Assembly: GCA_040905865.1 (NCBI GenBank)
Contig: JBBDQU010000005.1
Span: forward strand, 105,368-169,367
Source of the DNA: Alphaproteobacteria bacterium
GTDB lineage: Bacteria > Pseudomonadota > Alphaproteobacteria > UBA8366 > GCA-2717185
DNA length: 64,000 nucleotides
Direction of reading: 5' to 3'
The notes below the pieces were generated by a model. The model was not told the origin of the DNA, made no database searches, and saw only the letters and a list, made by a program, of their open reading frames with translations. Both the position numbers and the translations under genes were made by a program. Numbering within the stretch: the stretch's first letter is position 1; each line of letters opens with the position of its first letter. Shown here in pieces: positions 31,626 through 44,101 of the stretch.

Positions 31626-32363
31626 ATGGCTACACTGACCGCGGAAGAACTGCAACAGGCGCGAATCGACATGGCGGCGGCGTTCCGCTGGGCGGTTCGC
31701 CACGGGTTGCACGAAGGCATCTGCAATCATTTCAGCCTCGCGGTCGGCGACGACCAGTTCCTGATCAACGGCTATGGCTGGCACTGGTCGGAAATTACCG
31801 CCTCCAGAATTGTCCTGGCGCATTACGATGGCGAAATCATCGAAGGGGACGGCGAGGTCGAGGCGACCGCGTTCTATATCCACAGCCGCATCCACCGCGC
31901 CTGTCCGCAGGCCACCTGCGTCATGCACACGCATATGCCCTACGCAACGGCGCTGACCCTCGTCGAAGGCGGCCGGATCGAACCGATCGAGCAGGGGGCG
32001 CTGCGGTTCCAGAACCACGTCGCCTATGACGATGAATATAACGGTCTGGCGCTGGATTTCGCCGAAGGCGACCGGATCGCGAAAAAGATGGGCAACAAAC
32101 GCGTGATGTTCATGGGCGCGCACGGGGTGACGGTTACGGGTTCGACCATCGCGCGGACCTATGACTGGCTCTATTACCTGGAACGCGCCTGCAAGGCGCA
32201 GGTGCTGGCCCGCTCAACGGGGTTGCCGCTGCGGCGCCTGCCGGACGAGGTGATCCAGGCCACCGTCGACCAGTTCGAAGGCTCGAATACCGACAGCGCG
32301 CCGCTGCATTTCGAGGCGCTGAAACGGGTGCTGGACCGGGACGAGCCCGACTACAGGGATTAG
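31626..32363 (+). CDS. class II aldolase/adducin family protein
   Basis: 245 aa, ..HGLHEGICNHFS..CVMHTHMPYATAL..MGAHGVTVTG... Second of three members of this family in the window. Confidence 0.8.
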   Translation: MATLTAEELQQARIDMAAAFRWAVRHGLHEGICNHFSLAVGDDQFLINGYGWHWSEITASRIVLAHYDGEIIEGDGEVEATAFYIHSRIHRACPQATCVMHTHMPYATALTLVEGGRIEPIEQGALRFQNHVAYDDEYNGLALDFAEGDRIAKKMGNKRVMFMGAHGVTVTGSTIARTYDWLYYLERACKAQVLARSTGLPLRRLPDEVIQATVDQFEGSNTDSAPLHFEALKRVLDRDEPDYRD

Positions 32364-34294
32364 AGGATACCGCGGCTGTAGGAAGGCCGATCCGGCTTCG
32401 GGCCGGGCTGTCCGGTTTGCCCGGCGAAATATTCCGTGCAACTGTCGTTGATGCCCAGGGCATCGAAGCGCATGCGCCAGTATTCCGACGCCGCAAGGCC
32501 GCGGCTGACAATTTCATGGCGTCTTTCCGCTAATTCCGGATGACCCAGTTTTCGCTCGCAGATGCCGAGGAACAGTGCGGCCAGCGGATGTTCGGTGCCC
32601 ATCCGCTGCACCAGTTCATCCAGCATCGCCTTTTTCTTGCGCAATTTGTGCGGCCGCGTTTCGGCGATGATCGGACGGTAGTTGATGAGGTAATCCACCG
32701 TGAACCACACATCGACCATCTGGTCGCGCCGCGGGATGTAGTCGGGGGTCTCTGAAAAAGGGTTGAAGAACGGGGCGGCTTTTTTCTTTTCCGCCAGTTC
32801 GCGCTGGCGCACGGAACCGGTCACGCCGACGGAAAAACTGCCCGCCTTGTTTGGATTTTTACCGTTTGCGGCTTTGGTGACCGTTTCGCCATACTGATCC
32901 TGTTGCAGCATCATCTGCTCCACCGGCGTGCCACCCATCGGCATGACGATCTGGCTTGGATACCAGTCCAGATCCATCTTGCCGGCGAGATCGACCGTAT
33001 CGGCAAGCGCTGCGACAGTTTCCGACGGATAGCCGACCAGCAGGAAGCCCTTGGTGAAGATGGTCGGAAATTCCGTCAGCAGATTGGCGGCGCGCAGATA
33101 GGTCCGGATATTGCCGGGCTTGTTCATGTTGCGCAGGATTTCGGCGTTGCCCGATTCGACGCCGATATTGAAGCCGATGCATCCGGAAGCAACCGCCGCC
33201 TCCAGCAATTCATGGGTCATGGCGGCGGCGATCACGCCGTTGGAGGCATCCCAGGTGACGGGAAGCTTGCGGTCCGCGATTTCCCGGAACATGGCAATCG
33301 TCGCGCTGATATCGAAGAACAGGTCATCGTCCAGCCACATGATGTGGCGGACGCCGTAATTCTCATGGAGGCGCTGAATTTCATCGACGACGGACTGTCC
33401 CGACCGGACCCGCACGCCTTTGCCGGAGACCGTGCGCACGCTGCAGAAGGTGCAGGCGGCCCGGCAGCCACGACGGCTGATAGCGGTTGCCGACGGGGTG
33501 CCGGCGTCGCGCAGGAAGGTATAGGCGCCGATAGTGCCGTATTTGGCGTAATCGGCGATGGGCAAATCCTTGTAGTCGGGCGCGATGTCGAGCGCCGGCG
33601 GAATCGCGGCCGGGGTGGCGACGGGGCCGCTGGCGGGGTCGAGCGTCGCGACGCCTTTCAGGCCGATACCGGCGTCCCTGCCATTGGCGGCGTCGAGGAA
33701 ATGAACCAGGGTCTGTTCCGCCTCGTTGAACAGGACAAAATCGATTTCAGGAAGTTCGTTCAGGACCTTGTCAACCATCAGCGATGCATAGACGCCGCCG
33801 GAAATGATCGGAATATCCGGATGGATGCATTTCAGATGCCGCGCGATGGCGGAAAATTCGGCGGCGCAGTTTTCGAACATGCCGCTCAACCCGATCACAT
33901 CGGGCCGGAATTCCTCTATCTTCGCTTCCAGGGGGACCTTCCATACATCGAAGTCGAATGCGCCGCCCGCCTGTTCCGACGCCTTGCGCAGGACTTCGAA
34001 CTGCAGGTCGATGATATCGGCGGTATATCCGGCGGCTTCGACGCAGCGAACCAGGACACCTGGCCCATAAGGGGGAAAGCACGGATATCGGCCCTGGACA
34101 GCCACATCAATGGAGAAATGGTTACGGTCGATTTCGGGAACGGCGATCATCAGCAGGCGCTGCACCGGTTTCCCAAAGACGCCGGCCATGCGCTGCCGGA
34201 CGAACGGTTCATCTTTTTTCAGAATCGAAACGGGGCTTATGTGTTCTGATTTTGCCGCAACAGCCATGGAAAGCGCCTTTCGGAAAACGGGCAT
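32360..34294 (-). CDS. cobalamin-binding-domain radical SAM protein (class B), 644 aa with about 160-aa C-terminal extension
   Basis: N-terminal B12-domain-like RLLMIAVPE...PPYGPGVLVRCVEAAGYTADIIDLQ. CxxxCxxC cluster motif GCRAACTFCSV. The start is uncertain (M1 34294, M10 34267 or M36 34189). Confidence 0.85.
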   Translation of the reverse strand: MPVFRKALSMAVAAKSEHISPVSILKKDEPFVRQRMAGVFGKPVQRLLMIAVPEIDRNHFSIDVAVQGRYPCFPPYGPGVLVRCVEAAGYTADIIDLQFEVLRKASEQAGGAFDFDVWKVPLEAKIEEFRPDVIGLSGMFENCAAEFSAIARHLKCIHPDIPIISGGVYASLMVDKVLNELPEIDFVLFNEAEQTLVHFLDAANGRDAGIGLKGVATLDPASGPVATPAAIPPALDIAPDYKDLPIADYAKYGTIGAYTFLRDAGTPSATAISRRGCRAACTFCSVRTVSGKGVRVRSGQSVVDEIQRLHENYGVRHIMWLDDDLFFDISATIAMFREIADRKLPVTWDASNGVIAAAMTHELLEAAVASGCIGFNIGVESGNAEILRNMNKPGNIRTYLRAANLLTEFPTIFTKGFLLVGYPSETVAALADTVDLAGKMDLDWYPSQIVMPMGGTPVEQMMLQQDQYGETVTKAANGKNPNKAGSFSVGVTGSVRQRELAEKKKAAPFFNPFSETPDYIPRRDQMVDVWFTVDYLINYRPIIAETRPHKLRKKKAMLDELVQRMGTEHPLAALFLGICERKLGHPELAERRHEIVSRGLAASEYWRMRFDALGINDSCTEYFAGQTGQPGPKPDRPSYSRGIL

Positions 34295-34445
34295 GCCGTA
34301 TCAGCCGCACTTCAACATATCAGATTCGTGGTAACCAAACCATTAAGTCCCGGTTTCCAGGAGCAGCGCCAATTGCTTTCCCCGGCGGGGCAAACACGGT
34401 AACTTCAGTCTCAATCGGGATGCTCATCAGGAATATCGGATCGAC

Positions 34446-35378
34446 ATGGCCGCTCAGAATTCATTTCTCATAAATTCCTGGAACCATGGCAGAAACCCTA
34501 ATTCCGCCACTGATGTTTTCCGCTATCTGCGCAACGGTCTTTCGCTCGCGGGACAGACTGTCGGAGTCAGTCCGACGCTTTTCCACAATGCTGACCTCGT
34601 CAATATTCTGGTGGAGAATTTCAATATAAAGACGGCGGAAAACATTATTTCGATCAAGAAAAATGCCGGCATTCGCTTTGTGCTTGTGGCGACGGAACTG
34701 TTGACCGGTTCCAGCTTCAACGATGTTGGCAGCGATCAGTCCAATACGACCTATGCGGACCTGAACTACTGGCAGGAACGCTATACCGCTTTTGCAATGC
34801 TGGCGGAGTATGCGGAAGCAATCTGGCTGATGTCGGAATACCAGCGGCCCGGCTACGCCAAAAATTTTCCGAACACACAAATTCTGACGCTCCCGATGTG
34901 TTTCGATTCGATTGAAGCGGCGAATGGCGGCACCTTCCGCGCGCCGAAACTTTACGACGCGGTTTTCATGGGAACGCACACGAGTATTCGCATCGAAATG
35001 CTGGAGGAACTGAAAAAGCGCGTCCAGTTGTATACGCCTCATAATGTTCCTCCCTTCATGGTCAGTTCTGTCATCCAGTCGGCGCAGGTCTTCCTGCACC
35101 TGCATTTGAAGGAGGGGTGGCCCTTTACATCGATGATGCGGCACCATGTGGCGCTGACCTATGGCGCATACGTTATCAGCGAAAAATCGGAACTGCCCGG
35201 CGAACTGGATGGCTTCGTTGAAATCGTCCCGCGCGGTTCGTTTGCCGACGTCGTTCAGGAACGCGTCCTGGACAAATCGATTGTCCCCAGAGCCAGGGAG
35301 ATGCAGCGGCAATACGCCGCCAAGGGCGATCTCGGCGCGGAATTCCGGGTTCTCGTCGACGCGATGCCGTCGCCGTGA
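34446..35378 (+). CDS. hypothetical protein with glycosyltransferase-like (GT1_2/CgeB-type) C-terminal region
   Basis: 310 aa, lower GC. C-terminal ..DAVFMGTHTSIRIEMLEELKK...FLHLHLKEGWPFTSMMRHHVALTYGAYVISEKS..GFVEIVP.. resembles the C-terminal half of CgeB-like glycosyltransferases. This is a weak by-eye call. Confidence 0.55.
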   Translation: MAAQNSFLINSWNHGRNPNSATDVFRYLRNGLSLAGQTVGVSPTLFHNADLVNILVENFNIKTAENIISIKKNAGIRFVLVATELLTGSSFNDVGSDQSNTTYADLNYWQERYTAFAMLAEYAEAIWLMSEYQRPGYAKNFPNTQILTLPMCFDSIEAANGGTFRAPKLYDAVFMGTHTSIRIEMLEELKKRVQLYTPHNVPPFMVSSVIQSAQVFLHLHLKEGWPFTSMMRHHVALTYGAYVISEKSELPGELDGFVEIVPRGSFADVVQERVLDKSIVPRAREMQRQYAAKGDLGAEFRVLVDAMPSP

Positions 35379-35525
35379 TAGCGATTTACCGTTGCTGGAC
35401 ACGGCGGGCGATTGTCGGTCATCCTCTCGACAACTGTCGCCGATGCCTTGGTAAAATAGCGTGACAGTGTGTTTATCTGTATAGTGACAGAATGATTTCA
35501 GCCAGAGTCTGAGCCATTCGATAAT

Positions 35526-36458
35526 ATGAAAAACCCCGAGCTGTCATCACTAACGCCTCGCACTGCGACGTTAGGGCAAATTGAGGGTCTGGCGAATCAA
35601 TCATCCCCTGAATTGTCCTGTGAACTGTTCAGACTTATTTGCTTTTCGCGCGCATTCGAATGGCGTGTGAAGGCCGAAGCGGAACGGGGCAATGTCAATT
35701 GTTTGGTATACTTATCGCTGGGGCAGGAGAGTATCGCCGCCGGCGTCGCCGCCGCCCTGCGCGCTCAAAAGCCCTGGATCCTGGGCCAGCACCGGGCGCA
35801 TGCAACCTATCTCAGTTTCGGCGGCGCGCGGGTGCCGCTCGTCGATGAATTGCTGGGCCTGCCCGGCGGATGCTGCGGCGGCATGGCCGGGTCCCCGCCC
35901 ATCCACGATATCGCCAATCGAATCATCGGCCATGTGGGGCTGATCGGCGACCAGGTTCCGGTCGCCGCCGGCGTGGCGCTGACCAATCCCGGTGACCAGG
36001 TGATCTGTTTTTTCGGCGATGGCGCGGCGGAAGAGGACTATGTGCTTGCCGCTCTCGGATTCGCGGCCACCCGGCGGCTGAATATCCTGTTCGTCTGCGA
36101 GGATAACGACCTTTCGGTGCTGACGCCGACTTCTGTCCGGCGCAACTGGAATATTGCCGATGTCGCAACGTCGTTCGGGCTCGAATCCGTCGAGATCGCG
36201 GACGATCCCTGGCTGGTTTCATACTGGGCGGATCGGCTGAAGGGCCGGCCGGCGCTGATGAATGTCAAGACCTGCCGCGAAATCTGGCATGTCGGTACCG
36301 GCAATGACGGTCCGCCGGAATGGGACAGGTTTCAGCTGACGAGGGAAACCATGGCGCATATCGGGCTTGGCCGCAATGCGCGGAGCATTGAAGACAGAGC
36401 TACCGCAGAAATCGAGGAATTATGGGCGAAACGGTTGCAGATACAATCCGTGAGCTGA
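35526..36458 (+). CDS. thiamine-diphosphate-dependent E1 component, alpha-subunit-like
   Basis: TPP-binding motif FFGDGAAEEDYVLAALGFAATRRLNILFVCEDND (GDG...(E)DN). Confidence 0.85.
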   Translation: MKNPELSSLTPRTATLGQIEGLANQSSPELSCELFRLICFSRAFEWRVKAEAERGNVNCLVYLSLGQESIAAGVAAALRAQKPWILGQHRAHATYLSFGGARVPLVDELLGLPGGCCGGMAGSPPIHDIANRIIGHVGLIGDQVPVAAGVALTNPGDQVICFFGDGAAEEDYVLAALGFAATRRLNILFVCEDNDLSVLTPTSVRRNWNIADVATSFGLESVEIADDPWLVSYWADRLKGRPALMNVKTCREIWHVGTGNDGPPEWDRFQLTRETMAHIGLGRNARSIEDRATAEIEELWAKRLQIQSVS

Positions 36459-37327
36459 CGCGACGGCATATCGCTGAAAATAACGGTCTTGTCCTCGGTC
36501 AGTGCCTGTCGGCGGTCGGCTGGGTTCAGAATACCGTGCCGGAACAGGAAGCGGGTATCGAGGAACTGCCGATGACCGATACCGCCGGCGCGGGGATCGC
36601 GGTGGGAGCCGCGTTGACCGGGCGCAGGCCGATTTTCATCCTCCGGTTCCAGAGTCTGGTATGGCTGAACGCCAGTCCGCTCGTGAATCATGCCGCCCGT
36701 GTGAAAGCCATTTTCGGCTATGGTTGCCCGCTGTTCATCAGGGCTTCCGGCGATGAGGGGCATTCCATGGGCCCGGTGCATTCGGGCGCCCACCACGCGC
36801 CATTCATGTATGTTCCCGGATTGACCGTTGTCGCGCCCATGACTCCGGGAGAATACCGGGATATCTGGGCGCATTTCATGGCCCATGACGATCCCCTGTT
36901 CGTCAGCGAACACCGGCTCAGCTACAACAATACCGAGGAACTGCCGGACCGGATCGAGGATGGCGCCGATATCACCCTGTTTGCCGCCTCCGCGAGCCGG
37001 TTTTCCCTCGCGGAAGCGGCGGCGCGGCTGCGGGAGGATGGCATTCGGGTCAACATCGTCCATCTGGTCTGGCTGAAGCCGCTGAACGTGCCGGAAGCCG
37101 CCCTTGCCGCGCTGCGCGCCAGCGGCAATGGTCTGGTCCTCGATTCCGGGTTCGAAATCTGCGGTGCATCGCGCTCCATCGCCTATGAACTGACCCATCT
37201 GACAGGCGTCAGGGTCCACGCCCTCGCATTGGAAGACCGCCCGTCCGGGGTTGCAAAAAGGCTGGAGAACCTGTCGCCCCAGCCGGAACGAATTGTAAAG
37301 GAAGTCAGGAATATACTCGCTGAATGA
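36422..37327 (+). CDS. E1 component beta-subunit-like (transketolase pyrimidine-binding and C-terminal domains)
   Basis: ..IEELPMTDTAGAGIAVGAALTGRRPIFILRFQS.. GAGGAA lies upstream of the ATG. Overlaps the alpha-like gene by 37 nt. Confidence 0.8.
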   Translation: MGETVADTIRELTRRHIAENNGLVLGQCLSAVGWVQNTVPEQEAGIEELPMTDTAGAGIAVGAALTGRRPIFILRFQSLVWLNASPLVNHAARVKAIFGYGCPLFIRASGDEGHSMGPVHSGAHHAPFMYVPGLTVVAPMTPGEYRDIWAHFMAHDDPLFVSEHRLSYNNTEELPDRIEDGADITLFAASASRFSLAEAAARLREDGIRVNIVHLVWLKPLNVPEAALAALRASGNGLVLDSGFEICGASRSIAYELTHLTGVRVHALALEDRPSGVAKRLENLSPQPERIVKEVRNILAE

Positions 37328-38829
37328 ATGTATTGACTGACATCGATGTCGTCATGGTGACGCCGCCCAGCAGGCTCGCGGTGTATCAGGGCCTGTCGAA
37401 CGACCTGGCGGCCATCGAGCCGCCGGTCTGGTCGGGCTTGATCGCGGCGTACCTGCAACAGAGGAATTACAAGGTCGTCATGCTGGATGCGGAAGCCAGG
37501 GGGCTGAACCATGCGGACACGGCGGCAGAGATCGCCGCGTTGAAACCAGGGCTGGCGGTGTTCTGCATCTACGGGCAGCAGCCCTCGGCATCGACCCAGT
37601 GCATGCCGGGCGGCTCCATCACCTGCGCGCGCCTCAATGAAATTGCCGGCATCCCGAGCCTTGCGTTGGGAACCCATCCATCGGCGCTGCCGCGGCGTAC
37701 GTTGGAGGAGGAACCGTTTTCCTTCGTCTGTCAGGGCGAGGGGCCGCGCACGGTGGAGGCCCTGATCCGGGTGCTCCGGGACGGCGGCGACCTCGCGAAC
37801 GTGCCGGGTCTGTGGTACCGGGATGAAGCGGGGGCCATACACGGCAACAGGCCGGCGGCGAATATCGCGGATCTGGACAGTGAACTGCCGCGCCAGGCTT
37901 GGGACCTGCTGGATATGACGCAGTACCGGGCGCACAACTGGCATTGCTTCCATGACCTGGGCAGCCGCGGCAGCTACGCGTCGATCCAGACGAGCCTTGG
38001 ATGCCCCTTTCGCTGCGAATTCTGTTGTATCAACACGCCGTTTGGCGGCAACGGCGTCCGGAACTGGAGTCCCGAAAACGTCGTCGCGCAGATCGACGAA
38101 CTGGTCACCCGCTACGGGGTAAGGAACATCAAGATTCCCGACGAAATGTTCATCCTGAACCGGCGGCATGTGGCGGGAATCTGCGATGTCCTGATCGAAC
38201 GCGATTACGGCCTCAATATCTGGGCCTATGCGCGGATCGACACGTTGCGGGAATCGATGCTGGCGAAGCTGAAAGCGGCGGGCTTCAACTGGCTGGGGCT
38301 GGGCATCGAGTCCGCCAGTTCCTCCGTCCGTGACGGCATGGCCAAGGGAAGTTTTACCGATGACAATATCCGCGACGTTGTCCGCATGGTCCGCGATCAC
38401 GGAATCGCGGTCGGCGCGAATTACATCTTCGGCCTGCCCGACGATACAATGGACAGCATGAACGAAACGCTGGCGCTGGCGATCGAGCTGAATACGGAAT
38501 GGGCCAATTTCTATTGCGCGATGGCGTATCCGGGCTCCCCGCTTTACGAGGAAGCGAGGGCGAATAAATGGCCGCTTCCCGACGATCCGGGTGGGCCGGG
38601 CTGGATCGGTTATTCGCAGCTCGGTTACGACGCGATGCCGTTGCCGACCATGGCGCTAAGCGCCCGTCAGGTTCTTGAATTCCGCGACCATGCCTTCGAC
38701 CGGTACTTCACCAACCCGGCCTATCTGGCCATGCTGGAAGACAAATTCGGCTCCGAGGCGGTCGGCCACGTCAAACAGATGACGGCGCATCGGCTGAAAC
38801 GGCGCCTGCTCGAGACGCCGGCTGCCTGA
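37324..38829 (+). CDS. cobalamin-binding-domain radical SAM protein (class B), 501 aa
   Basis: B12-domain-like N-terminus (VVMVTPPS..PPVWSGLIAAYLQQRNYKVVMLDAE). CxxxCxxC motif GCPFRCEFCCIN. The ATGA overlaps the E1-beta-like stop. Confidence 0.88.
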   Translation: MNVLTDIDVVMVTPPSRLAVYQGLSNDLAAIEPPVWSGLIAAYLQQRNYKVVMLDAEARGLNHADTAAEIAALKPGLAVFCIYGQQPSASTQCMPGGSITCARLNEIAGIPSLALGTHPSALPRRTLEEEPFSFVCQGEGPRTVEALIRVLRDGGDLANVPGLWYRDEAGAIHGNRPAANIADLDSELPRQAWDLLDMTQYRAHNWHCFHDLGSRGSYASIQTSLGCPFRCEFCCINTPFGGNGVRNWSPENVVAQIDELVTRYGVRNIKIPDEMFILNRRHVAGICDVLIERDYGLNIWAYARIDTLRESMLAKLKAAGFNWLGLGIESASSSVRDGMAKGSFTDDNIRDVVRMVRDHGIAVGANYIFGLPDDTMDSMNETLALAIELNTEWANFYCAMAYPGSPLYEEARANKWPLPDDPGGPGWIGYSQLGYDAMPLPTMALSARQVLEFRDHAFDRYFTNPAYLAMLEDKFGSEAVGHVKQMTAHRLKRRLLETPAA

Positions 38830-38831
38830 TA

Positions 38832-39842
38832 TCAGTCCGCTGCCGCGGCGTCCGTTTCCGCCGAAATCCGCGCCCAGGTTTCCCGCAACCAGGTCGCACA
38901 GGCGACAGAGTGTTCGAACAGCGAGTATTTCGCGCCCATGCCGTAATCCGGCCCGGGAATGAATTCGGTGGAAATCTGGCCGAGCGGGCTGGTTTCGGCG
39001 GTGGCGTGATGGCGCATCAACTTGCGCATCACCTCTTTCCAGGGTTCCAGCTTTTCTTCGGACCAGTCGCTGTGCCACTCGCCGGGGGCGGGCCGGAAGA
39101 AGGGGTACTGGATGCCGCGGCCGATGCGGCCGTCCTCATGCTTGCCCCAGATGTTCTTCGGATTGTTCGGCACGGCGGCGCGGGCGTGGCAGTGCCAGAC
39201 ATAGCCGCGGCTGATCCATTCGTCGCAGACATTGCCGGGCTTGCCAGGATCGAGCACCACCTTGCCGGATTCCACATCGGGGCGCATATCGAGCATGTCC
39301 TGTTCGCCCGGATTGTCGATCTTGAAGATCACATGCGAATGATCCAGCGTCATGCGGTAGGGAATGCCCCGCGCCTCGACCAGTGCGGCGACTTCGCTGA
39401 CCCGTCCGTAATGCTCCGACCACATGTTTACATGCACTTCGAAGCACGGCAGGCAGCCGGCTTTCTCGCCGGTTTCATAGGCGCGCAGATAGGCCTCGGC
39501 AACTTCCTCGTTGCTGATCAGGTGTCCGTCCGCGTGGCGCATGGTGATCTGGGTGTTGTGGACCCGGCTGCCGAGTCGTGCGCCGAGCGCAATATTGGCG
39601 TCGAGCAGGGCTTCGTCCCGGCCCAGCGTATAGAACCAGCCGCCGGCACGGATCGGCAGGTCGTATTTCTCGCTCGCACGACGGTAATCGGCTTCTTCAG
39701 CGGCGGGCGGCGTCTTGTCGTAGTAATCGTAGACGCCGGATTCCTTGACCATGCGGAACCGTGTGTCGAGGTCGAATTCGAACTCGCCGCCCCGGTGGTT
39801 CACGCCCTTTTCGGTGATCCCGAATGCCAGTTTCCGCGCCAT
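38832..39842 (-). CDS. xylose-isomerase-like TIM-barrel protein (sugar phosphate isomerase/epimerase family)
   Basis: 336 aa. The family call is by overall resemblance (..FEVHVNMWSEHYGRVSEV..MTLDHSHVIF..) and is moderate only. Confidence 0.65.
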   Translation of the reverse strand: MARKLAFGITEKGVNHRGGEFEFDLDTRFRMVKESGVYDYYDKTPPAAEEADYRRASEKYDLPIRAGGWFYTLGRDEALLDANIALGARLGSRVHNTQITMRHADGHLISNEEVAEAYLRAYETGEKAGCLPCFEVHVNMWSEHYGRVSEVAALVEARGIPYRMTLDHSHVIFKIDNPGEQDMLDMRPDVESGKVVLDPGKPGNVCDEWISRGYVWHCHARAAVPNNPKNIWGKHEDGRIGRGIQYPFFRPAPGEWHSDWSEEKLEPWKEVMRKLMRHHATAETSPLGQISTEFIPGPDYGMGAKYSLFEHSVACATWLRETWARISAETDAAAAD

Positions 39843-40068
39843 AGCCTGTCTCCCCGTCTGTGTCCGGGGATAAGCCTAGCAGAATGCGGCGGCGGCAGGG
39901 TAGGGTCGACGGATCATTGTGGCGGTCGGGAACAGGTGTTTCAAATGGAACGGCGCAAAATCGGGTTGTGCGGTTCTGCCGCGCCCGTTACGGTTCCCAG
40001 TCTGTCGGCGAAGGTGCATGCAATGGTCCGATAAATATTTGAATATCAATGACGTAGGGGACATTTTC

Positions 40069-41868
40069 ATGACGGACAGCAATGAGCTCAATGGCGGCCA
40101 GGTTATCATCGATTATCTGATCCGCGAGGATGTGCCCTATGTCTTCGGGCTTTGCGGGCACGGCAATATCGGGCTGATTGATGCGATGTACGAGCGGTCG
40201 GACGATATCAAGACTATCTCCGTCCATCATGAAAGCGTCTCCGGCTTCATGGCCGATGTCTATTACCGCGTCTCCGGCCAGGCGACCGCGACCTTCACCT
40301 CCTGCGGTCCCGGCTCGGCGAATATGCCGATCTGCCTCGCCAATGCCTTCTTCGATTCCGTGCCGTTCCTGGCGATCACCGGCAATGTGCCGACCAGCCA
40401 GTTCAACCGGGGCGCCTTCCAGGAAACCTACCGCCATTATCAGGCCGATTTTCCGTCCACCGTGCAGGCCTATTGCAAACGCGTCTACCAGCCGACCCGC
40501 GGCGAACAGGTGCCGCTGATGGTGCGGCAGGCCTGGAAGACGATGGTCACGGGCCGGCCCGGCCCGGTGGTGCTGGACGTGCCTTTCGATATCTTCAAGG
40601 AATCCGCCGCGGAAACCCCGGATCCGAAGGAATGGAGCGCGAATATCTCCTGCCGCTGCGGCGCCGATCCCGAAGGCGTCGAGAAAGCGGTCGATATGCT
40701 GCTGTCCGCCGAGAAGCCGGTGATCGTCGTGGGGCAGGGGGTGCGCTATGGCGGCGCCGCCGAGGAACTGAAGGCGCTGGCCGAACGGCTGCAGATTCCG
40801 GTGGCGTCCTCGGCGAGCGGCCTTGGCGCCCTGCCGGTCGAGCACCCGCTGTCGCTGGGCCTCGTACAGCGCGGCGGCACCTATCAGGCGAACCATTCCT
40901 GCCGTCAGGCCGATGTGCTGCTGGCGCTTGGCGTGCGCTTCGATGACCGGACGTCCAGTTCGTGGATACCGGGCTATTCCTTCACAATCCCGCCCTCCAA
41001 ACTGATCCATGTGGATATCGATCCGGAGGAAATCGGCCGCAACTATCCGGTCACCCTGGGGCTGATGGCGGATGTGCGCACCTTCCTGCGCCAGATTCTG
41101 GGCGAACTCGATCGGCGCGGATATTCCGGGGGACCGACTCCGGTGAGCCGGAAATGGCTGGCGGAGATCGATACCTACCGCGCCAAATGGGACGCCTTTA
41201 TTGCGCCGGGCTTCACCGATGATTCATCGCCCATCAATCCGCAGCGCGCGGCCGTGGAAATCGACAAGGCGCTGCCGGAAGACGCGATCCTGGTCAGCGA
41301 TATCGGTGTGCATCACAACTGGCTGCTGCAGTTCTGCAAACCGACCCGGCCGGATTCGCTGATCGGCTCCATGGGCTTTGGCCCGATGGGATTTGGCGTC
41401 GCCGGCGTGCTGGGCGCCAAACTGGCCGCGCCCGACCGGCCCGCCGTTTCGGTCTGTGGCGATGGCGCGTTCTTCATGCATGCGAACGTGCTCGGCACGG
41501 CGGTTGAGTACAATATCCCGGCCGTCTGGGTGGTCTGGAACAATTACGCCTATGGGTCGATCCGGGGGCTGCAGCGCGGCTATCTGGAAAGCCGCGAACT
41601 GGCGACCGATTTCCACCACCCGGAAACCGGCAAGCCCTACAATCCGGACTTTGCCGCCATGGCGCGGTCGGCGGGGGTCGAGGGCGTCAGCATCGACCGG
41701 GCGGGCGATCTGGGCGATGCGATCCAGGCCGCGATTGCCGCCAACAAACCCTTTCTGATCGACGCCAATATTAGCGGCGACCTGAATCCGCCGGGCGCGG
41801 GTGTGTGGGAACTGCCGGGGCTGGGCGTCAACAGGCCGGCGATCGGCGAGCGCTTCGTGCCGAAATAG
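40069..41868 (+). CDS. thiamine-diphosphate-binding enzyme of the acetolactate-synthase/IolD-like superfamily
   Basis: I prefer the start at ATG 40069 (MTDSNELNGGQVIIDYLIREDVPYVFGLCGHGNIG..). C-terminal TPP motif VCGDGAFFMHANVLGTAVEYNIPAVWVVWNN. Confidence 0.85.
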   Translation: MTDSNELNGGQVIIDYLIREDVPYVFGLCGHGNIGLIDAMYERSDDIKTISVHHESVSGFMADVYYRVSGQATATFTSCGPGSANMPICLANAFFDSVPFLAITGNVPTSQFNRGAFQETYRHYQADFPSTVQAYCKRVYQPTRGEQVPLMVRQAWKTMVTGRPGPVVLDVPFDIFKESAAETPDPKEWSANISCRCGADPEGVEKAVDMLLSAEKPVIVVGQGVRYGGAAEELKALAERLQIPVASSASGLGALPVEHPLSLGLVQRGGTYQANHSCRQADVLLALGVRFDDRTSSSWIPGYSFTIPPSKLIHVDIDPEEIGRNYPVTLGLMADVRTFLRQILGELDRRGYSGGPTPVSRKWLAEIDTYRAKWDAFIAPGFTDDSSPINPQRAAVEIDKALPEDAILVSDIGVHHNWLLQFCKPTRPDSLIGSMGFGPMGFGVAGVLGAKLAAPDRPAVSVCGDGAFFMHANVLGTAVEYNIPAVWVVWNNYAYGSIRGLQRGYLESRELATDFHHPETGKPYNPDFAAMARSAGVEGVSIDRAGDLGDAIQAAIAANKPFLIDANISGDLNPPGAGVWELPGLGVNRPAIGERFVPK

Positions 41869-41962
41869 CGCCGCTCCTGGTGCAAGCCGGCCGGATAATT
41901 TGACATCGGGACGGTGCGGGTTTTCTATTCGGATCACCGCAGTCGGCGAGGAAGAAGAGGCC

Positions 41963-42745
41963 ATGACCGTTCATCTGGTAACCAGGGGAAAATCCGTTCG
42001 CGATCAGGTCAGTCCGGAAGAATGGCAGGCGCGCGTAGAGCTGGCCGCCGGGCACCGGGTGCTGGCGCATTACGGCGTCAACGACATGACCTACAACCAT
42101 TTCGGACTGCGCGTGCCGGGCGAACCGGATCATATGCTGATCAAGCGCACGGACTGGATGTTTGCCGAAATCACCGCCTCGTCCTTCCTGAAGGTCGATT
42201 TCGCCGGCAATGTCATCCTCGATACCGATGTGAAACAGATCAAGGGCGGGGCGCTGATCATCCACGCGGGTCTGTTGAAGGCGCGACCGGACCTGAACGC
42301 GACTCTGCACACCCACACCATTGCCGGGATGGGCGTGGCCGCGCATAAATTCGGTCTGCTGCCGATCAACCAGCATGCGATGCGGTTCTGGGGTGAGTTG
42401 AAATACCACGAATTCGAAGGCTTCGAGTTCGACCACGACATGACGCCGAAACTGCTGCGCGATCTGGAAGGCGGCAGCCTGATGATGCTGCGCAACCACG
42501 GTGTGCTGGTCTGCGGCGAAAGCGTCGCCGAATGCGTCGTCAACCATCACTGGCTGGAAATGGCATGTCAGGGGCAGATCGCGGCCCTGTCGGCGGGCGA
42601 GGGCAATTACCTGGTGCCGGACAAGGCTGCCTGCGACTACGCCCACAGCCAGTTCAGGGACGGCGGCAATTTTCTGAAGGGGGGCAAGGACTGGGCCGCC
42701 TGCCTGCGGCTCGCCGAGCGCCTCGACCCCTCGTTCAAGGACTGA
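41963..42745 (+). CDS. class II aldolase/adducin family protein
   Basis: Start at ATG 41963 (MTVHLVTRGK..). ..ATLHTHTIAGMGVAA..LRNHGVLVCGESV... Confidence 0.8.
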   Translation: MTVHLVTRGKSVRDQVSPEEWQARVELAAGHRVLAHYGVNDMTYNHFGLRVPGEPDHMLIKRTDWMFAEITASSFLKVDFAGNVILDTDVKQIKGGALIIHAGLLKARPDLNATLHTHTIAGMGVAAHKFGLLPINQHAMRFWGELKYHEFEGFEFDHDMTPKLLRDLEGGSLMMLRNHGVLVCGESVAECVVNHHWLEMACQGQIAALSAGEGNYLVPDKAACDYAHSQFRDGGNFLKGGKDWAACLRLAERLDPSFKD

Positions 42746-42760: not shown

Positions 42761-44101
42761 ATGCGATTTGACGATGCCGCGCGGTATGTCATCGACGATC
42801 CGGACAGCGGGACCTTCAAGGTCCATCGGGACGTTTTCGGCGACGCGGCCCTGTTCGATCTGGAAATACGCCGGATATTCGAGGGCGGCTGGGTCTATGT
42901 CTGCCTGGAAAACCAGATCCCGGAACCGAACGATTTTTTCTGCACGAAAATCGGGCGCCGCTCCATCATCGTGTCCCGCGACGAGGATGGCGTGCTGCAC
43001 TGTTTCTACAATACCTGCCGCCACCGGGGCGCCGCGATCTGCCATGTGGAGCGCGGCAACAAGAAGTACCATGTCTGCGACTATCACGGCTGGGCCTATG
43101 ATTCCTCTGGGAAGAACTTCGACATCAAGGACCGCAAGGCGGGCGGCTATGCCAAATCTTTCGACGCCTGCGACCATGACCTGTTGCCCGTGGCGCGGTT
43201 CGACAGCTATGCGGGACTGCTGTTCGTCAGCCTGAATCCGAACGTGCCGTCACTGTCCGACTATCTGGGCGAGGCAAAACAGTTCCTTGATCTGGTCATG
43301 GACCAGGGTCGCGACGGGATGGAACTGGTGCCCGGCCGCACCAACTACACCTATGCCGGAAACTGGAAGCTGCAGCTCGACAACAGCCTCGATTTCTATC
43401 ACCTGACGTCGACCCATCGCAGCTTCGTCAATATCGTGAACCAGCGTGAAGCGGGCAAAAGCGCCAACCGGCAGGTGACCTCGCCGAATTTCCAGCGCCG
43501 TTTCGCCATGCCGGCCGGCATGTTCAACCTGGGCAACGGCCATGCGGTGATGTGGGCGGACCAGCCCAACCCGGAGACCCAGCCGCTCTGGGGCGAGATC
43601 GAGGAAGTGACGGCACGGGTCGGGGAGGTCCGGGCGAAATGGATGGTGCGGGCGCGCAATCTGACGATTTTCCCGAACCTGCAGATCGCGGATTCGACCT
43701 CGCTGGTGCTGCGCACGATCACCCCGCTCGCCGTCGACAAGACCGAGATGGTGATGTACAGCCTCGCGCCCGTCGGGGAGGCGGATGACCTGCGTTACAC
43801 CCGGATCCGGCAGCACGAGGATTTCTTCAATGTCTCCGGACTGGCGACGCCGGACGACACGATCGTGTATGAGGACTGTCAGGCCGGGTTTGTCAGCGCC
43901 GATGACGACTGGCTGCAATGCTTCGAACGCGGCATCACCGCCCTGCAACCCGGCGCCAACGAACACGCGCGGGAACTGGGCATTTCGCCGGTCGCCAGCA
44001 TGGTGGGTAAATACGCCATGCAGAACGAGGTGAGTTACCATTCCGCCTATCAGGAATGGGTGAAGCGGCTGTCCGGCGCCTTGCCGCTCGCCGCGGAGTG
44101 A
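42761..44101 (+). CDS. Rieske non-haem-iron oxygenase, alpha subunit
   Basis: Rieske motif CRHRGAAICH...CDYHGWAY. Mononuclear-iron motif DNSLDFYHLTSTH. Confidence 0.9.
   Translation: MRFDDAARYVIDDPDSGTFKVHRDVFGDAALFDLEIRRIFEGGWVYVCLENQIPEPNDFFCTKIGRRSIIVSRDEDGVLHCFYNTCRHRGAAICHVERGNKKYHVCDYHGWAYDSSGKNFDIKDRKAGGYAKSFDACDHDLLPVARFDSYAGLLFVSLNPNVPSLSDYLGEAKQFLDLVMDQGRDGMELVPGRTNYTYAGNWKLQLDNSLDFYHLTSTHRSFVNIVNQREAGKSANRQVTSPNFQRRFAMPAGMFNLGNGHAVMWADQPNPETQPLWGEIEEVTARVGEVRAKWMVRARNLTIFPNLQIADSTSLVLRTITPLAVDKTEMVMYSLAPVGEADDLRYTRIRQHEDFFNVSGLATPDDTIVYEDCQAGFVSADDDWLQCFERGITALQPGANEHARELGISPVASMVGKYAMQNEVSYHSAYQEWVKRLSGALPLAAE

What the first reader, a model, noticed from the sequence alone, without database searches (positions are those of the whole stretch)
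32360..39842. Unassigned cluster: two class-B (cobalamin-type) radical SAM enzymes flanking a GT-like protein and an E1 alpha/beta TPP enzyme with no E2/E3
A 644-aa B12-domain radical SAM gene (minus strand) diverges from a plus-strand operon. That operon encodes a lower-GC glycosyltransferase-like hypothetical, an E1-alpha-like and an E1-beta-like protein, and a 501-aa B12-domain radical SAM enzyme. The last three genes overlap, which suggests translational coupling. A xylose-isomerase-fold gene abuts convergently. No lipoyl-E2, E3, precursor peptide, or PqqD/RRE-like gene is present. It is therefore neither a 2-oxoacid dehydrogenase complex nor an obvious RiPP locus. From memory, PDH-E1-like alpha/beta pairs attach two-carbon branches to deoxysugars (AviB1/AviB2 in avilamycin), and class-B radical SAM enzymes C-methylate sugars and lipids. 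My working hypothesis is a tailoring pathway for an unusual branched or methylated sugar or glycolipid. This is the best candidate in the window for an undescribed biosynthetic system.
Basis: partly seen in the sequence, partly recalled or inferred. Interest (0 to 1): 0.62.

Follow-up and report, generated by a model that had tools for sequence, protein, structure and literature searches.

The report
Orphan sugar-tailoring radical SAM/thiamine cassette
This is a self-contained five-gene cassette (two B12-type radical SAM enzymes, a thiamine-dependent E1-like pair and a small glycosyltransferase-like protein) whose core belongs to an uncharacterised module found in cell-surface sugar gene clusters of Nitrospira, Nitrospina, SAR11 and many other bacteria, so it probably builds or decorates an unusual branched sugar that nobody has yet described.

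Summary
Every observation was confirmed: the ORFs, domains, overlaps, low-GC GT-like gene, xylose-isomerase-family neighbour and absence of E2/E3.

The real unit is five genes, 32360-38829: rSAM644(-), a GT-B-like 310-aa protein, E1alpha, E1beta and rSAM501. It recurs intact at 76-83% identity in other contigs with different flanks. The 336-aa gene is not part of it.

The core is rSAM501 plus a ThDP enzyme. In 65 genome loci with full flanks, 57 have a ThDP enzyme within 6 kb. That enzyme is an E1 pair, a single-chain ALS/YerE-like protein or, in other loci, a split transketolase. Also, 57 of 65 lie in GDP-sugar clusters carrying a ColD-type 3-dehydratase (His for Lys in 56 of 59), an Fcl/ColC-like reductase, an HddA-like kinase and an HddC-like guanylyltransferase, often with glycosyltransferases and export genes nearby.

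Neither radical SAM protein reaches any curated family cut-off (BchE, HpnJ, HpnR, P-methyltransferases, RiPP). No true PEP mutase, precursor peptide or riboswitch is present.

Best reading: a tailoring module for a C-branched, possibly C-methylated, surface sugar, analogous to yersiniose/avilamycin branching but with added radical SAM chemistry. The chemistry is inferred, not shown. The window copy is an orphan with no sugar-nucleotide genes in 64 kb.

The parts
32360..34294 (-). rSAM644: radical SAM enzyme with an N-terminal B12-binding domain. It is the divergently transcribed arm of the cassette. The likely true start is M36 (about 34189), giving 609 aa.
   Evidence: It hits PF02310 (51.8 bits) and PF04055 (64.4 bits). 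The CX3CX2C motif is at C277, and it carries 'GLSGM' (135), 'SGGVYAS' (165) and 'NEAE' (190) cobalamin-type motifs (motif definitions from PMC9204698). Its best NCBIfam hits are P-methyltransferase Sden_1168 (121 vs 575) and ApyD (115 vs 750), all far below cut-off. Homologues at 78% identity in L085 and 40-49% in L087 and L088 lie in glycan clusters with the same module.
34295..34445 (.). Divergent intergenic region between rSAM644 and the plus-strand operon (151 nt, or 256 nt if rSAM644 starts at M36).
   Evidence: This follows from the coordinates. No sigma-70-like site, terminator or riboswitch was detected.
34446..35378 (+). hyp310: small GT-B-fold, glycosyltransferase-like protein from a tiny family, with lower GC than its neighbours.
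   Evidence: It has no Pfam, NCBIfam or PDB sequence hit. Only 11 protein clusters were found among 5.8 billion sequences. The AF2 model (pLDDT 69) matches SenB, GlgM, WaaG, BshA and PimA. GC is 0.537. It is present in one to three copies in the same cassette in L085 and the JGI contig. Elsewhere it sits with TylF/Methyltransf_24 methyltransferases and PhyH dioxygenases.
35526..36458 (+). E1alpha-like ThDP-binding subunit, with ThDP/Mg motif G164-D-G ... C191-E-D-N-D.
   Evidence: It hits PF00676 (65.7 bits) and PF02775. It scores 103.9 bits on TIGR03182 against a cut-off of 393.85. Its best PDB match is human PDH E1alpha at 1.7e-16. The motif is conserved in the family.
36422..37327 (+). E1beta-like subunit. 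It overlaps E1alpha by 37 nt and rSAM501 by 4 nt. It has Asp53 where PDH E1beta has the ThDP-activating Glu.
   Evidence: It hits PF02779 and PF02780. It scores 90 bits on NF006667 against a cut-off of 321. The alignment to 3duf_B and 1ik6 places D53 opposite the Glu of 'TPLAE/TPLNE'. Asp is conserved in 17 of 26 cassette-type E1beta proteins.
37324..38829 (+). rSAM501: radical SAM enzyme with a B12-type N-terminal domain. It is the anchor of a large, highly conserved and uncharacterised family.
   Evidence: It hits PF02310 (34.0 bits) and PF04055 (64.1 bits). The CX3CX2C motif is at C227. Invariant G116 and G138-E139 align with the beta4 Gly and alpha5 Gly-Glu cobalamin contacts of TokK, QCMT, OxsB and TsrM. 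All NCBIfam hits are far below cut-off: BchE 133 vs 481, HpnJ 123 vs 578. At least 533 genome stretches encode a relative, and the 80 loci retained are 54-83% identical. It is ThDP-linked in 57 of 65 loci.

Best explanation
The locus is a portable five-gene cassette that tailors a sugar destined for a cell-surface glycan.

Proposed mechanism (inferred):
1. The E1alpha/E1beta-like heterodimer works alone, without E2 or E3, as a ThDP-dependent decarboxylase/carboligase. It decarboxylates a 2-oxoacid, with pyruvate as the default assumption, to a ThDP-bound hydroxyalkyl carbanion. It then adds this two-carbon unit to the carbonyl of a keto-sugar nucleotide, most plausibly a GDP-4-keto-3,6-dideoxyhexose type. 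The result is a C-branched sugar, as YerE does in yersiniose and AviB1/AviB2 are proposed to do in avilamycin.
2. rSAM501 is translationally coupled to E1beta. Together with the divergently transcribed rSAM644, it carries out radical C-H functionalisation of the same sugar or its new branch. C-methylation is the most likely reaction. A non-methylating dehydration or rearrangement by rSAM501 is a live alternative.
3. The small GT-B-like protein hyp310 transfers the finished sugar, or a sugar onto it.

What is shown: gene structure, domains, catalytic motifs, conservation of the five-gene unit, coupling of rSAM501 to three interchangeable ThDP-enzyme architectures, and embedding of both radical SAM families in GDP-sugar and polysaccharide clusters.

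What is inferred: the substrates, the order of steps, cobalamin use, and the identity of the product.
For: Unit and boundaries. The same five genes occur at 76-83% identity in L085 and again in a JGI contig, with unrelated flanking genes.

Core coupling. Of 65 loci with at least 4 kb on both sides, 57 have a ThDP enzyme within 6 kb of the rSAM501 homologue: 25 with an E1 pair and 32 with an ALS-like protein. A split transketolase follows the rSAM in L004, L052 and L068. This is non-orthologous displacement around a constant partner.

Glycan context. 57 of 65 loci carry at least 3 of 5 sugar-nucleotide genes within 10 kb. These genes are an HddA-like GHMP kinase, an HddC/ManC-like guanylyltransferase, two SDRs (one Fcl/ColC-like at 425 bits) and a DegT-family enzyme. 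GT1, GT2 and GT9 enzymes, Wza/Wzc, Bac_transf and Wzm/Wzt lie nearby.

Substrate clue. 56 of 59 DegT neighbours have His at the PLP-Lys position. Their best solved relative is ColD (1.2e-47), with the His aligned to ColD H188. Lys-to-His is the hallmark of 3-dehydratases that yield NDP-4-keto-3,6-dideoxyhexoses (PMC8987622).

Precedent. YerE (single ThDP flavoprotein) and AviB1/AviB2 or Pau11/Pau12 (E1-like pairs) install C-4 acetyl branches from pyruvate (PMC4753412). These are two of the three ThDP architectures that alternate here.

No E2/E3. No signature motif occurs in the window, and no E2 or E3 gene lies in any related locus.

hyp310 has a GT-B fold. Cobalamin-contact motifs are retained in both radical SAM proteins.
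Against: The window has no sugar-nucleotide, glycosyltransferase (other than hyp310) or export gene in 64 kb. Its flanks are purine-synthesis and catabolic genes. The two other contigs with the intact unit, the window's closest known relatives, are also orphans, so the sugar link for this sub-clade is by homology only.

No member of either radical SAM family or of this E1 subtype has been characterised, and all curated-model scores are far below cut-off.

rSAM501's best solved relative is AprD4, a non-methylating enzyme that does not bind cobalamin. Its best NCBIfam hits, BchE and HpnJ, are also non-methylases.

E1beta has Asp in place of the canonical ThDP-activating Glu, so its catalytic competence is unproven.

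The AviB1/AviB2 activity is itself only proposed.

The hyp310 model is of moderate confidence, and the other four AF2 models had pLDDT of 43-49.

The presence of aminotransferase and homocitrate-synthase-like genes in some loci suggests the donor may not be pyruvate.
Confidence: 0.55

Rival explanations
1. The process is still sugar synthesis, but the chemistry differs. The ThDP enzyme acts like transketolase or DXS on a sugar phosphate and extends the chain by a C2 unit to give an unusual ketose phosphate. That product is then isomerised, dephosphorylated, 1-phosphorylated and GDP-activated, in parallel with the GDP-glycero-manno-heptose route. The radical SAM enzyme modifies this precursor.
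For: A split transketolase replaces the E1 or ALS-like enzyme in L004, L052 and L068. HddA-like kinase and HddC-like guanylyltransferase genes are among the most frequent neighbours. A mannose-6-P-isomerase-like cupin, a HAD phosphatase and an enolase-family acid-sugar dehydratase sit directly next to the E1 pair in the Bdellovibrionota and SAR11 loci.
Against: The ColD-type 3-dehydratase and the Fcl/ColC-like SDR act on nucleotide-linked 4-keto sugars. That points to modification at the NDP-sugar level. The kinase and guanylyltransferase could simply supply the base sugar. None of these genes is in the window.
Confidence: 0.2
2. rSAM501 is not a methyltransferase. It would be a radical dehydratase or rearrangement enzyme of the AprD4, HpnJ or BchE type. 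It would generate the keto (deoxy-keto) acceptor on the sugar, or remodel the ring, for the adjacent ThDP enzyme. Only rSAM644 would methylate.
For: The best solved relative is AprD4, a diol dehydratase that yields a 3'-deoxy-4'-keto aminoglycoside sugar: 1.3e-19 with the single sequence and 3.9e-25 with the family profile (the AprD4 chemistry is from my own knowledge). The top NCBIfam hits, BchE and HpnJ, are non-methylating, whereas rSAM644's top hits are methyltransferases. Tight, often translational, coupling to the ThDP enzyme would suit a labile keto intermediate.
Against: All similarities are remote and far below family cut-offs. AprD4 aligns only with the radical SAM core, while the N-terminal domain aligns with true cobalamin binders and keeps their Gly and Gly-Glu contacts. 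Most loci already encode a ColD-type 3-dehydratase for the deoxygenation.
Confidence: 0.2
3. In this orphan sub-clade the cassette has left glycan synthesis. It would make or modify a small soluble metabolite, for example an acyloin or branched 2-oxoacid-derived compound, possibly glycosylated by hyp310.
For: There are no sugar-nucleotide genes in the 64-kb window or around L085 and the JGI contig. Flanks in all three are catabolic or redox enzymes. In L006 an aminotransferase and a homocitrate-synthase-like enzyme are interleaved with the module. HMGL-like genes also accompany hyp310 relatives.
Against: The flanks differ between copies, so they do not define a shared pathway. The cassette proteins are clear orthologues (54-66% identity for rSAM501) of those in glycan clusters. 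The cassette keeps a GT-B-like gene.
Confidence: 0.12
4. The pair is the E1 component of a conventional 2-oxoacid or acetoin dehydrogenase complex that uses E2 and E3 encoded elsewhere. The radical SAM genes would be unrelated neighbours.
For: The Pfam domains and best PDB hits are PDH or BCKDH E1alpha and E1beta.
Against: Scores are a quarter to a third of the curated cut-offs. Asp replaces the activating Glu. There is no E2 or E3 in the window or in any locus examined with such a pair. The pair is interchangeable with ALS-like and transketolase-like enzymes next to the same radical SAM gene. E1beta overlaps rSAM501 by 4 nt.
Confidence: 0.03
5. The locus is a RiPP, phosphonate or hopanoid/lipid tailoring locus, which are the usual homes of B12-radical SAM enzymes.
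For: There are weak NCBIfam similarities to ApyD, to P-methyltransferases (Sden_1168, PhpK), and to HpnJ, HpnR and ladderane-lipid radical SAM proteins. A PEP_mutase-superfamily gene lies at 47456-48469.
Against: All scores are far below cut-off. The PEP_mutase-superfamily protein scores 40 bits against 319.55 on TIGR02320, lacks the EDK-X5-NS motif (own knowledge), and sits with a CoA-transferase and a CitE-like lyase. No precursor peptide, RRE or PqqD was found, and the 72-aa ORFs seen near relatives are unrelated fragments absent from the window. No hopanoid or lipid genes occur in any context.
Confidence: 0.03

Closest known systems
YerE / yersiniose pathway (CDP-3,6-dideoxy-4-keto-hexose plus pyruvate gives a C-4 acetyl-branched sugar)
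   Same: A ThDP enzyme without E2/E3 sits in an O-antigen-type sugar cluster. In Nitrospira, AMB-1 and Patescibacteria loci, the partner of the radical SAM enzyme is a single-chain ALS-like protein with N, M and C domains, like YerE. A 3-dehydratase upstream supplies a 4-keto-3,6-dideoxy sugar.
   Different: The window uses an E1alpha/beta pair, not a single chain. The nucleotide is probably GDP (ColD, Fcl and HddC-like relatives), not CDP. One or two B12-type radical SAM enzymes are obligatory partners, which the yersiniose pathway lacks.
AviB1/AviB2 (avilamycin) and Pau11/Pau12 (paulomycin) E1alpha/beta-like pairs
   Same: These are PDH-E1-like alpha/beta pairs with no E2/E3, located in deoxysugar clusters. 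They are proposed to attach a two-carbon branch from pyruvate to C-4 of a sugar (PMC4753412).
   Different: Those are actinomycete antibiotic pathways whose activity is proposed but not demonstrated. No sequences were available for comparison. The pair here carries Asp in place of the E1beta Glu and is fused operonically to a radical SAM gene.
GDP-L-colitose pathway (Gmd, ColD, ColC)
   Same: Family loci encode a ColD-type His-containing 3-dehydratase (best PDB hit ColD at 1.2e-47) and an Fcl/ColC-like SDR (425 bits on the GDP-fucose synthase model).
   Different: These genes are absent from the window. In the family loci, additional ThDP and radical SAM steps are inserted. The Fcl model cut-off (500 bits) is not reached.
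Class B (cobalamin-dependent) radical SAM sugar C-methyltransferases such as GenK, GenD1 and Fms7
   Same: They share the N-terminal B12-type Rossmann domain plus radical SAM core. They act on unactivated carbons of sugars in biosynthetic clusters and are listed among the characterised methylases in PMC12931638.
   Different: No detectable family-level relationship was found. The best curated hits are other subfamilies, all far below cut-off. The substrate here is likely a nucleotide sugar of a primary cell-envelope glycan, not an aminoglycoside.
AprD4 (radical SAM diol dehydratase of apramycin biosynthesis)
   Same: It is the best solved-structure relative of rSAM501, and it acts on a sugar.
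   Different: The similarity is confined to the radical SAM core (positions 211-414). AprD4 does not bind cobalamin (PMC12931638), whereas rSAM501 keeps the cobalamin-contact Gly and Gly-Glu motifs. The NCBIfam AprD4 score is 92 bits against a cut-off of 500.
Pyruvate / branched-chain 2-oxoacid dehydrogenase E1 heterotetramer
   Same: The fold, domain order and ThDP/Mg motif in the alpha subunit are shared.
   Different: There is no E2/E3. The curated cut-offs are missed by a wide margin. Asp replaces the ThDP-activating Glu. Both subunits are shorter (310 and 301 aa).

Membership tests
2-oxoacid dehydrogenase complex E1 (PDH/BCKDH/acetoin) | Sequence reaches the curated equivalog models for E1alpha and E1beta | tested here: not met
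   E1alpha scores 103.9 bits against 393.85 (TIGR03182). E1beta scores 90.1 bits against 321 (NF006667).
2-oxoacid dehydrogenase complex E1 (PDH/BCKDH/acetoin) | Lipoyl-E2 and E3 partners are encoded with the E1 genes | tested here: not met
   No E2 or E3 signature motif occurs in six frames of the 64 kb. None is annotated in L082, L084, L085, the JGI contig, L087 or L088. Partners elsewhere in the genome cannot be excluded.
2-oxoacid dehydrogenase complex E1 (PDH/BCKDH/acetoin) | Conserved E1beta glutamate that activates ThDP | tested here: not met
   D53 aligns with the Glu of 3duf_B and 1ik6. Asp is present in 17 of 26 cassette-type E1beta proteins, and Glu is retained only in the Nitrospina subtype.
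ThDP-dependent enzyme (general) | GDG-X(25-30)-N(N) ThDP/Mg2+ binding motif | tested here: met
   E1alpha carries G164-D-G followed by C191-E-D-N-D, and this is conserved across the family.
AviB1/AviB2-type sugar C-branching E1-like pair | E1alpha/beta-like pair without E2/E3 inside a deoxysugar or glycan cluster | tested here: inconclusive
   The feature is met for relatives in Nitrospina, SAR11, Bdellovibrionota and Nitrospira loci. It is not met for the window copy, which has no sugar genes in 64 kb.
AviB1/AviB2-type sugar C-branching E1-like pair | Sequence relationship to AviB1/AviB2, and C-4 acetyl transfer from pyruvate | not testable with these tools
   No AviB or Pau sequences were available. 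The activity is only proposed in the literature.
Class B (cobalamin-dependent) radical SAM | CX3CX2C cluster motif plus an N-terminal B12-binding Rossmann domain | tested here: met
   C277 and C227 motifs are present. PF02310 scores 51.8 and 34.0 bits against a cut-off of 32.1.
Class B (cobalamin-dependent) radical SAM | Cobalamin-contact motifs (Ser motif after beta3, Gly-Gly on beta4, Gly-Glu at alpha5; PMC9204698) | tested here: met
   In rSAM501, invariant G116 and G138-E139 align with TokK, QCMT, OxsB and TsrM. In rSAM644, GLSGM and SGGVYAS are present, but NEAE replaces GEGE. This is sequence-level evidence only.
Class B (cobalamin-dependent) radical SAM | Actual cobalamin binding and methyl transfer | not testable with these tools
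   AprD4 shows that such domains can lack cobalamin.
   rSAM501 scores BchE 132.7 vs 481, HpnJ 123.4 vs 578 and HpnR 52.7 vs 650. rSAM644 scores BchE 95.5, HpnJ 88.8 and HpnR 61.8. No HpnP-specific hit was listed.
RiPP maturation radical SAM locus | Precursor peptide and RRE/PqqD-like element, with a curated model | tested here: not met
   ApyD scores 115 and 109 bits against 750, and rSAM_ocin_1 scores 78 and 82 against 282. No RRE or PqqD domain is in the neighbours. The candidate 72-aa ORFs are unrelated fragments.
Phosphonate biosynthesis (P-methyltransferase type) | PEP mutase with the EDK-X5-NS motif in the locus | tested here: not met
   The only PEP_mutase-superfamily gene (47456-48469) scores 40 bits against 319.55 and reads 'IEDGVYD'. 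The P-methyltransferase models score 121 vs 575 and 92 vs 600.
GT-B glycosyltransferase (hyp310) | Two-Rossmann GT-B fold | tested here: met
   Foldseek top hits are all GT-B/GT4 enzymes at E 2e-7 to 1e-5 and TM 0.5-0.58. The model is of moderate quality (pLDDT 69).
GT-B glycosyltransferase (hyp310) | Match to a curated GT sequence family | tested here: not met
   There is no Pfam or NCBIfam hit. A 22%-identical relative in L006 has a sub-threshold Glyco_trans_1_2 hit (22.4 vs 25 bits).
Xylose-isomerase-like TIM barrel (hyp336, neighbour only) | PF01261 match | tested here: inconclusive
   The window protein has no hit at E<=5. However, 8 of 13 full-length relatives match, with a best E-value of 1.5e-7. 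The AF2 single-sequence model is unusable.

The most novel reading that the evidence does not exclude
The rSAM501 family and its interchangeable ThDP partner form a previously unrecognised two-enzyme unit. It would couple ThDP carbanion chemistry with radical SAM (possibly cobalamin) chemistry to build a new class of C-branched and/or C-alkylated higher sugar. That sugar would be a common but overlooked component of the cell envelopes of globally abundant bacteria (SAR11, Nitrospira, Nitrospina, Bdellovibrionota). The window carries a mobile, stripped-down version that edits a glycan made elsewhere in the genome.
Probability: 0.3. Interest if true: 0.8.

Novelty: new variant of a known kind. 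Interest (0 to 1): 0.64.

Why it matters
The anchor enzyme is unusually conserved, at 54-83% identity across several phyla. At least 533 of the genome stretches scanned, from a collection of about 186,000 species genomes, encode a relative. These include the main nitrite oxidisers (Nitrospira, Nitrospina) and SAR11, the most abundant marine heterotroph. Yet no curated model, structure or paper covers it.

If the module makes a branched or alkylated surface sugar, it would define a new monosaccharide pathway. That would bear on phage and grazer recognition in these organisms. It would add a sugar-nucleotide substrate class to B12-radical SAM chemistry. It would also give the first widely distributed, primary-metabolism counterpart to the YerE/AviB branching enzymes.

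The Asp-for-Glu E1beta variant is of separate interest for ThDP enzymology. Cultured, partly tractable hosts exist, including M. magneticum AMB-1, P. kuznetsovii, Azospirillum sp. OGB3 and Hwanghaeella grinnelliae. The hypothesis is therefore directly testable.

Tried and rejected
(1) Phosphonate locus. This was prompted by rSAM644's best hit being a P-methyltransferase and by a PEP_mutase-superfamily gene at 47456-48469. I rejected it because that protein scores 40 bits against 319.55 on the PepM model, lacks the EDK-X5-NS motif, and is grouped with a CoA-transferase and a CitE/RipC-like lyase.

(2) Hidden precursor peptide. 72-aa ORFs lie next to the cassette or to hyp310 relatives in L085, the JGI contig and L086. 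The two that could be read (L085, L086) are unrelated to each other, look like fragments of larger genes, and are absent from the window.

(3) The ALS-like 649-aa gene (39919-41868) and hyp336 as members of the unit. Both are absent from L085, the JGI contig and L002. The ALS-like gene is only 26-27% identical to the Nitrospira partner enzyme.

(4) Riboswitch or regulatory RNA. The Rfam gathering scan found only a tRNA at 4245-4317. The promoter and terminator scans were uninformative.

(5) Structure of hyp336 from a single sequence. The model had pLDDT 37 and was unusable, so I did not submit it to fold search.

(7) Literature searches for a radical SAM plus ThDP module in GDP-heptose, O-antigen or SAR11 hypervariable-region contexts found nothing relevant.

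(8) The metagenome scan for more window-type cassettes with the hyp310 alignment returned only one locus (L090), and it lacked the cassette.

(9) Using AprD4 similarity to argue that rSAM501 lacks cobalamin. AprD4 aligns only with the radical SAM core, while the N-terminal domain aligns with true cobalamin binders.

Full report
OBSERVATION

They were called independently on a metagenome contig that carries the identical genes.

Pfam gives B12-binding plus Radical_SAM for the 644-aa and 501-aa proteins. It gives E1_dh/TPP_enzyme_C for the first 310-aa plus-strand enzyme and Transket_pyr/Transketolase_C for the 301-aa protein.
- The radical SAM cluster motifs are C277-X3-C-X2-C in rSAM644 and C227-X3-C-X2-C in rSAM501.
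- E1alpha and E1beta overlap by 37 nt, and E1beta and rSAM501 by 4 nt.
- The 336-aa gene ends 2 nt beyond the rSAM501 stop on the other strand.
- The 310-aa hypothetical has a GC content of 0.537, against 0.611 for the window.
- NCBI's own call of the 644-aa ORF starts at M36, giving 609 aa.

The two proteins without Pfam matches were tested separately.
- hyp310 has no sequence relative in Pfam, NCBIfam or the PDB, and only 11 protein clusters were found among 5.8 billion sequences. An AlphaFold model built from that small alignment is of moderate quality (pLDDT 69, pTM 0.67). Its Foldseek matches are uniformly GT-B/GT4 glycosyltransferases, including SenB, GlgM, WaaG, BshA and PimA (E 2e-7 to 1e-5, TM 0.5-0.58, 10-14% identity). 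'GT-like' is therefore supported at fold level only.
- hyp336 has no Pfam hit even at E<=5, and its single-sequence model is unusable (pLDDT 37). However, 8 of 13 full-length relatives found by exhaustive HMMER match PF01261, the xylose-isomerase-like TIM barrel.

No E2 or E3 signature motif occurs in any reading frame of the window. No lipoyl, E3, RRE or PqqD domain was seen in any scanned neighbour.

WHAT THE UNIT IS

The same five genes recur in contig L085 and again in a JGI contig. Their order is: rSAM644-like on the minus strand, one to three hyp310 paralogues, E1alpha, E1beta, then rSAM501. In L085 the five proteins are 78%, 76%, 78%, 83% and 83% identical to the window's.

The flanking genes differ completely.
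- In the window they are a class II aldolase and purB on one side, and hyp336, an ALS-like gene and a Rieske oxygenase on the other.
- In the other two contigs they are ApbA, SnoaL and Ldh_2 on one side, and Amidohydro_2 and FMO on the other.

The unit therefore runs from 32360 to 38829. hyp336 and the ALS-like gene at 39919-41868 are neighbours, not members.

The rest of the window consists of housekeeping and catabolic genes, with no glycan genes. These include purL, purC, purB, rpsD, a 3-oxo-tetronate kinase, a benzoate-type dioxygenase, a CoA-transferase and a CitE-like lyase.

THE CONSERVED CORE

rSAM501 belongs to a very large and strikingly conserved family.
- The 120 best protein clusters are 62-83% identical to it.
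- The lineages include Nitrospira (including Ca. N. defluvii), Nitrospina, Pelagibacteraceae, Bdellovibrionota, Rhodospirillales, Flavobacteriaceae and others.

I called ORFs in the 83 loci then held, which included the 80 from that scan, and clustered them. I then measured linkage by tblastn. Of 65 loci with at least 4 kb on both sides:
- 57 have a ThDP enzyme within 6 kb of the radical SAM gene;
- 25 of those have an E1alpha/beta pair, and 32 have a single-chain ALS-like protein with N, M and C domains.

In three further loci (L004, L052, L068), the genes following the radical SAM gene are the two halves of a split transketolase. One radical SAM family is therefore tied to three different ThDP architectures. 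This pattern of non-orthologous displacement argues that what the partner supplies is generic ThDP chemistry, a C2 carbanion equivalent.

By contrast, hyp310, hyp336 and rSAM644 are not generally co-conserved with it. rSAM644-like genes at 33-49% identity do recur next to the module in L006, L012, L080, L081, L087 and L088.

CONTEXT IN OTHER GENOMES

57 of the 65 loci carry at least three of five sugar-nucleotide gene clusters within 10 kb. Those five clusters are:
- an HddA-like GHMP kinase;
- an HddC/ManC-like guanylyltransferase;
- an SDR epimerase/dehydratase;
- an Fcl/ColC-like SDR, scoring 425 bits on the GDP-fucose synthase model against a cut-off of 500;
- a DegT-family enzyme.

Some lineages add a DJ-1 protein, a mannose-6-P-isomerase-like cupin, an enolase-family acid-sugar dehydratase, a HAD phosphatase or a class I/II aminotransferase.

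Annotated neighbourhoods show the glycan machinery around the module.
- In M. magneticum AMB-1 and Nitrospira there are GT1, GT2 and GT9 enzymes and giant methyltransferase/glycosyltransferase fusions.
- Around an rSAM644 relative (L087) there are Wza/Wzc, an initiating transferase and Wzm/Wzt.
- In a Patescibacteria contig (L089), an O-antigen-like ABC-transporter cluster holds an rSAM644 relative, an ALS-like ThDP enzyme and an aminotransferase.

The DegT neighbour is informative.
- 56 of 59 members have His where aminotransferases have the PLP-binding Lys.
- The best solved relative is ColD (1.2e-47), with the His aligned to ColD His188.
- A review states that Lys-to-His is the key difference of the nucleotide-sugar 3-dehydratases E1, ColD and SpnQ, and that E1 and ColD yield NDP-4-keto-3,6-dideoxyhexoses (PMC8987622).
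- That product is the type of acceptor that YerE uses.

WHAT IT IS NOT

- Neither radical SAM protein reaches any curated NCBIfam cut-off. rSAM501 scores BchE 133 vs 481 and HpnJ 123 vs 578. rSAM644 scores Sden_1168 P-methyltransferase 121 vs 575 and ApyD 115 vs 750.
- The E1 subunits score about a quarter of the PDH cut-offs.
- The only PEP_mutase-superfamily gene in the window is not a PEP mutase.
- No riboswitch is present.
- No precursor peptide was found. The small ORFs near relatives are unrelated fragments.
- Literature searches found no description of this module.

MECHANISM

Shown: the domain architecture, an intact ThDP/Mg motif in E1alpha (GDG...CEDND), intact radical SAM motifs, operon structure, and the comparative pattern described above.

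Inferred steps:
1. The E1-like pair acts as a stand-alone ThDP decarboxylase/carboligase. It adds a 2-oxoacid-derived C2 unit to a keto-sugar nucleotide. This follows the documented YerE reaction and the proposed AviB1/AviB2 and Pau11/Pau12 reactions (PMC4753412).
2. The radical SAM enzymes functionalise unactivated C-H bonds of that sugar or of the branch.
3. hyp310 is the cognate transferase.

On the cofactor question:
- rSAM501's invariant G116 and G138-E139 align with the beta4 Gly and alpha5 Gly-Glu cobalamin contacts of TokK, QCMT, OxsB and TsrM.
- AprD4, which does not bind cobalamin (PMC12931638), aligns only with the radical SAM core.
- rSAM644 has GLSGM and SGG motifs of the classical type.
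- Cobalamin binding is therefore plausible for both proteins but unproven.

Whether rSAM501 methylates is open. Its nearest characterised relatives (BchE, HpnJ, AprD4) are not methylases, whereas those of rSAM644 are.

A serious alternative for the ThDP step is transketolase- or DXS-like chain extension at the sugar-phosphate level. It is suggested by the split-transketolase variant and by the heptose-pathway-like kinase, phosphatase, isomerase and guanylyltransferase set.

In some loci an aminotransferase, and in P. kuznetsovii a homocitrate-synthase-like enzyme, lie inside the module. The donor may therefore be a tailored 2-oxoacid and not pyruvate.

CAVEATS SPECIFIC TO THE WINDOW

- The window's copy and the two other contigs with the intact unit (L085 and the JGI contig) are orphans. 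No sugar-nucleotide gene lies within the window or around those copies.
- The sugar assignment for this sub-clade rests on orthology (54-66% identity for rSAM501) and on the GT-B-like gene.
- Outside the cassette, hyp310 relatives sit with TylF-type and Methyltransf_24 methyltransferases and PhyH dioxygenases. This is compatible with glycan decoration but is not proof.
- E1beta carries Asp in place of the canonical ThDP-activating Glu. The Asp is conserved in 17 of 26 family members, so it is a trait and not decay. Its catalytic consequence is unknown.

VERDICT

The finding is best described as a new variant of a known kind: ThDP-mediated sugar branching combined with uncharacterised B12-type radical SAM chemistry. 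Its core is widespread in environmentally dominant bacteria and has no characterised member.

I put confidence in the general reading (surface-sugar tailoring) at about 0.75. Confidence in the specific mechanism given is about 0.55, or lower for individual steps.

Noticed in passing
window 36422-37327 (E1beta residue D53); family in L002, L006, L013, L047-L057, L064, L069-L074, L081: E1beta has Asp at the position of the invariant ThDP-activating Glu of PDH E1beta. The Asp is conserved in 17 of 26 module-associated E1beta proteins. The Nitrospina subtype keeps Glu and a canonical CENN metal motif.
   Followed up: partly
L004 (about 14-16 kb), L052 9159-10019, L068 (about 11.5-15 kb): In some genomes the rSAM501 homologue is followed by a split transketolase (a Transketolase_N subunit plus a Transket_pyr/Transketolase_C subunit) in place of an E1 pair or ALS-like enzyme. 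This is a third ThDP architecture for the same partner.
   Followed up: partly
L084 3806-5002, L071 16461-17768 and 54 other loci: The DegT-family neighbour of the module is a ColD-type sugar 3-dehydratase (His replaces the PLP Lys), not an aminotransferase. A few SAR11 loci carry an additional true aminotransferase copy with Lys.
   Followed up: yes
L006 6677-7858 (P. kuznetsovii LBB-42); L090 11975-12958: A homocitrate-synthase/HMGL-like gene lies between the rSAM501 homologue and E1alpha in P. kuznetsovii. Another HMGL-like gene lies near a stand-alone hyp310 relative. This hints that a tailored 2-oxoacid is involved.
   Followed up: no
L049, L063, L066, L069 (cluster c27, e.g. L069 12351-13775): A HemN-like radical SAM gene (Radical_SAM plus HemN_C, about 470 aa) accompanies the module in SAR11 and Flavobacteriaceae-type loci. 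It is a third kind of radical SAM enzyme in these clusters.
   Followed up: no
L084 13380-18656; L088 12155-18682: Giant proteins of 1758-2175 aa lie immediately downstream of the module in Nitrospira. They fuse several methyltransferase and glycosyltransferase domains.
   Followed up: no
window 45522-49847: A family III CoA-transferase, a divergent PEP_mutase/isocitrate-lyase-superfamily protein (not a true PepM) and a CitE/RipC-like C-C lyase form what looks like an organic-acid catabolic cluster (itaconate or methylisocitrate type).
   Followed up: partly
window 21042-22319: There is a clear 3-oxo-tetronate kinase (NF043035, 642 bits against a cut-off of 350). Two class II aldolase/decarboxylase-family genes lie at 31626-32363 and 41801-42745, which suggests acid-sugar (tetronate) catabolism in this genome.
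   Followed up: no
window 42761-45202: Benzoate/anthranilate-type Rieske dioxygenase alpha and beta subunits are followed by a short ORF with a partial GRDB (glycine reductase B) match. This is an odd combination and remains unexplained.
   Followed up: no
Pelagibacteraceae loci L047, L049, L054, L057, L069: A radical SAM enzyme with retained cobalamin-contact motifs is encoded in streamlined SAR11 genomes. From my own knowledge, SAR11 is thought to have little or no B12 metabolism. Either cobalamin is scavenged for this enzyme or the domain is used without it.
   Followed up: no
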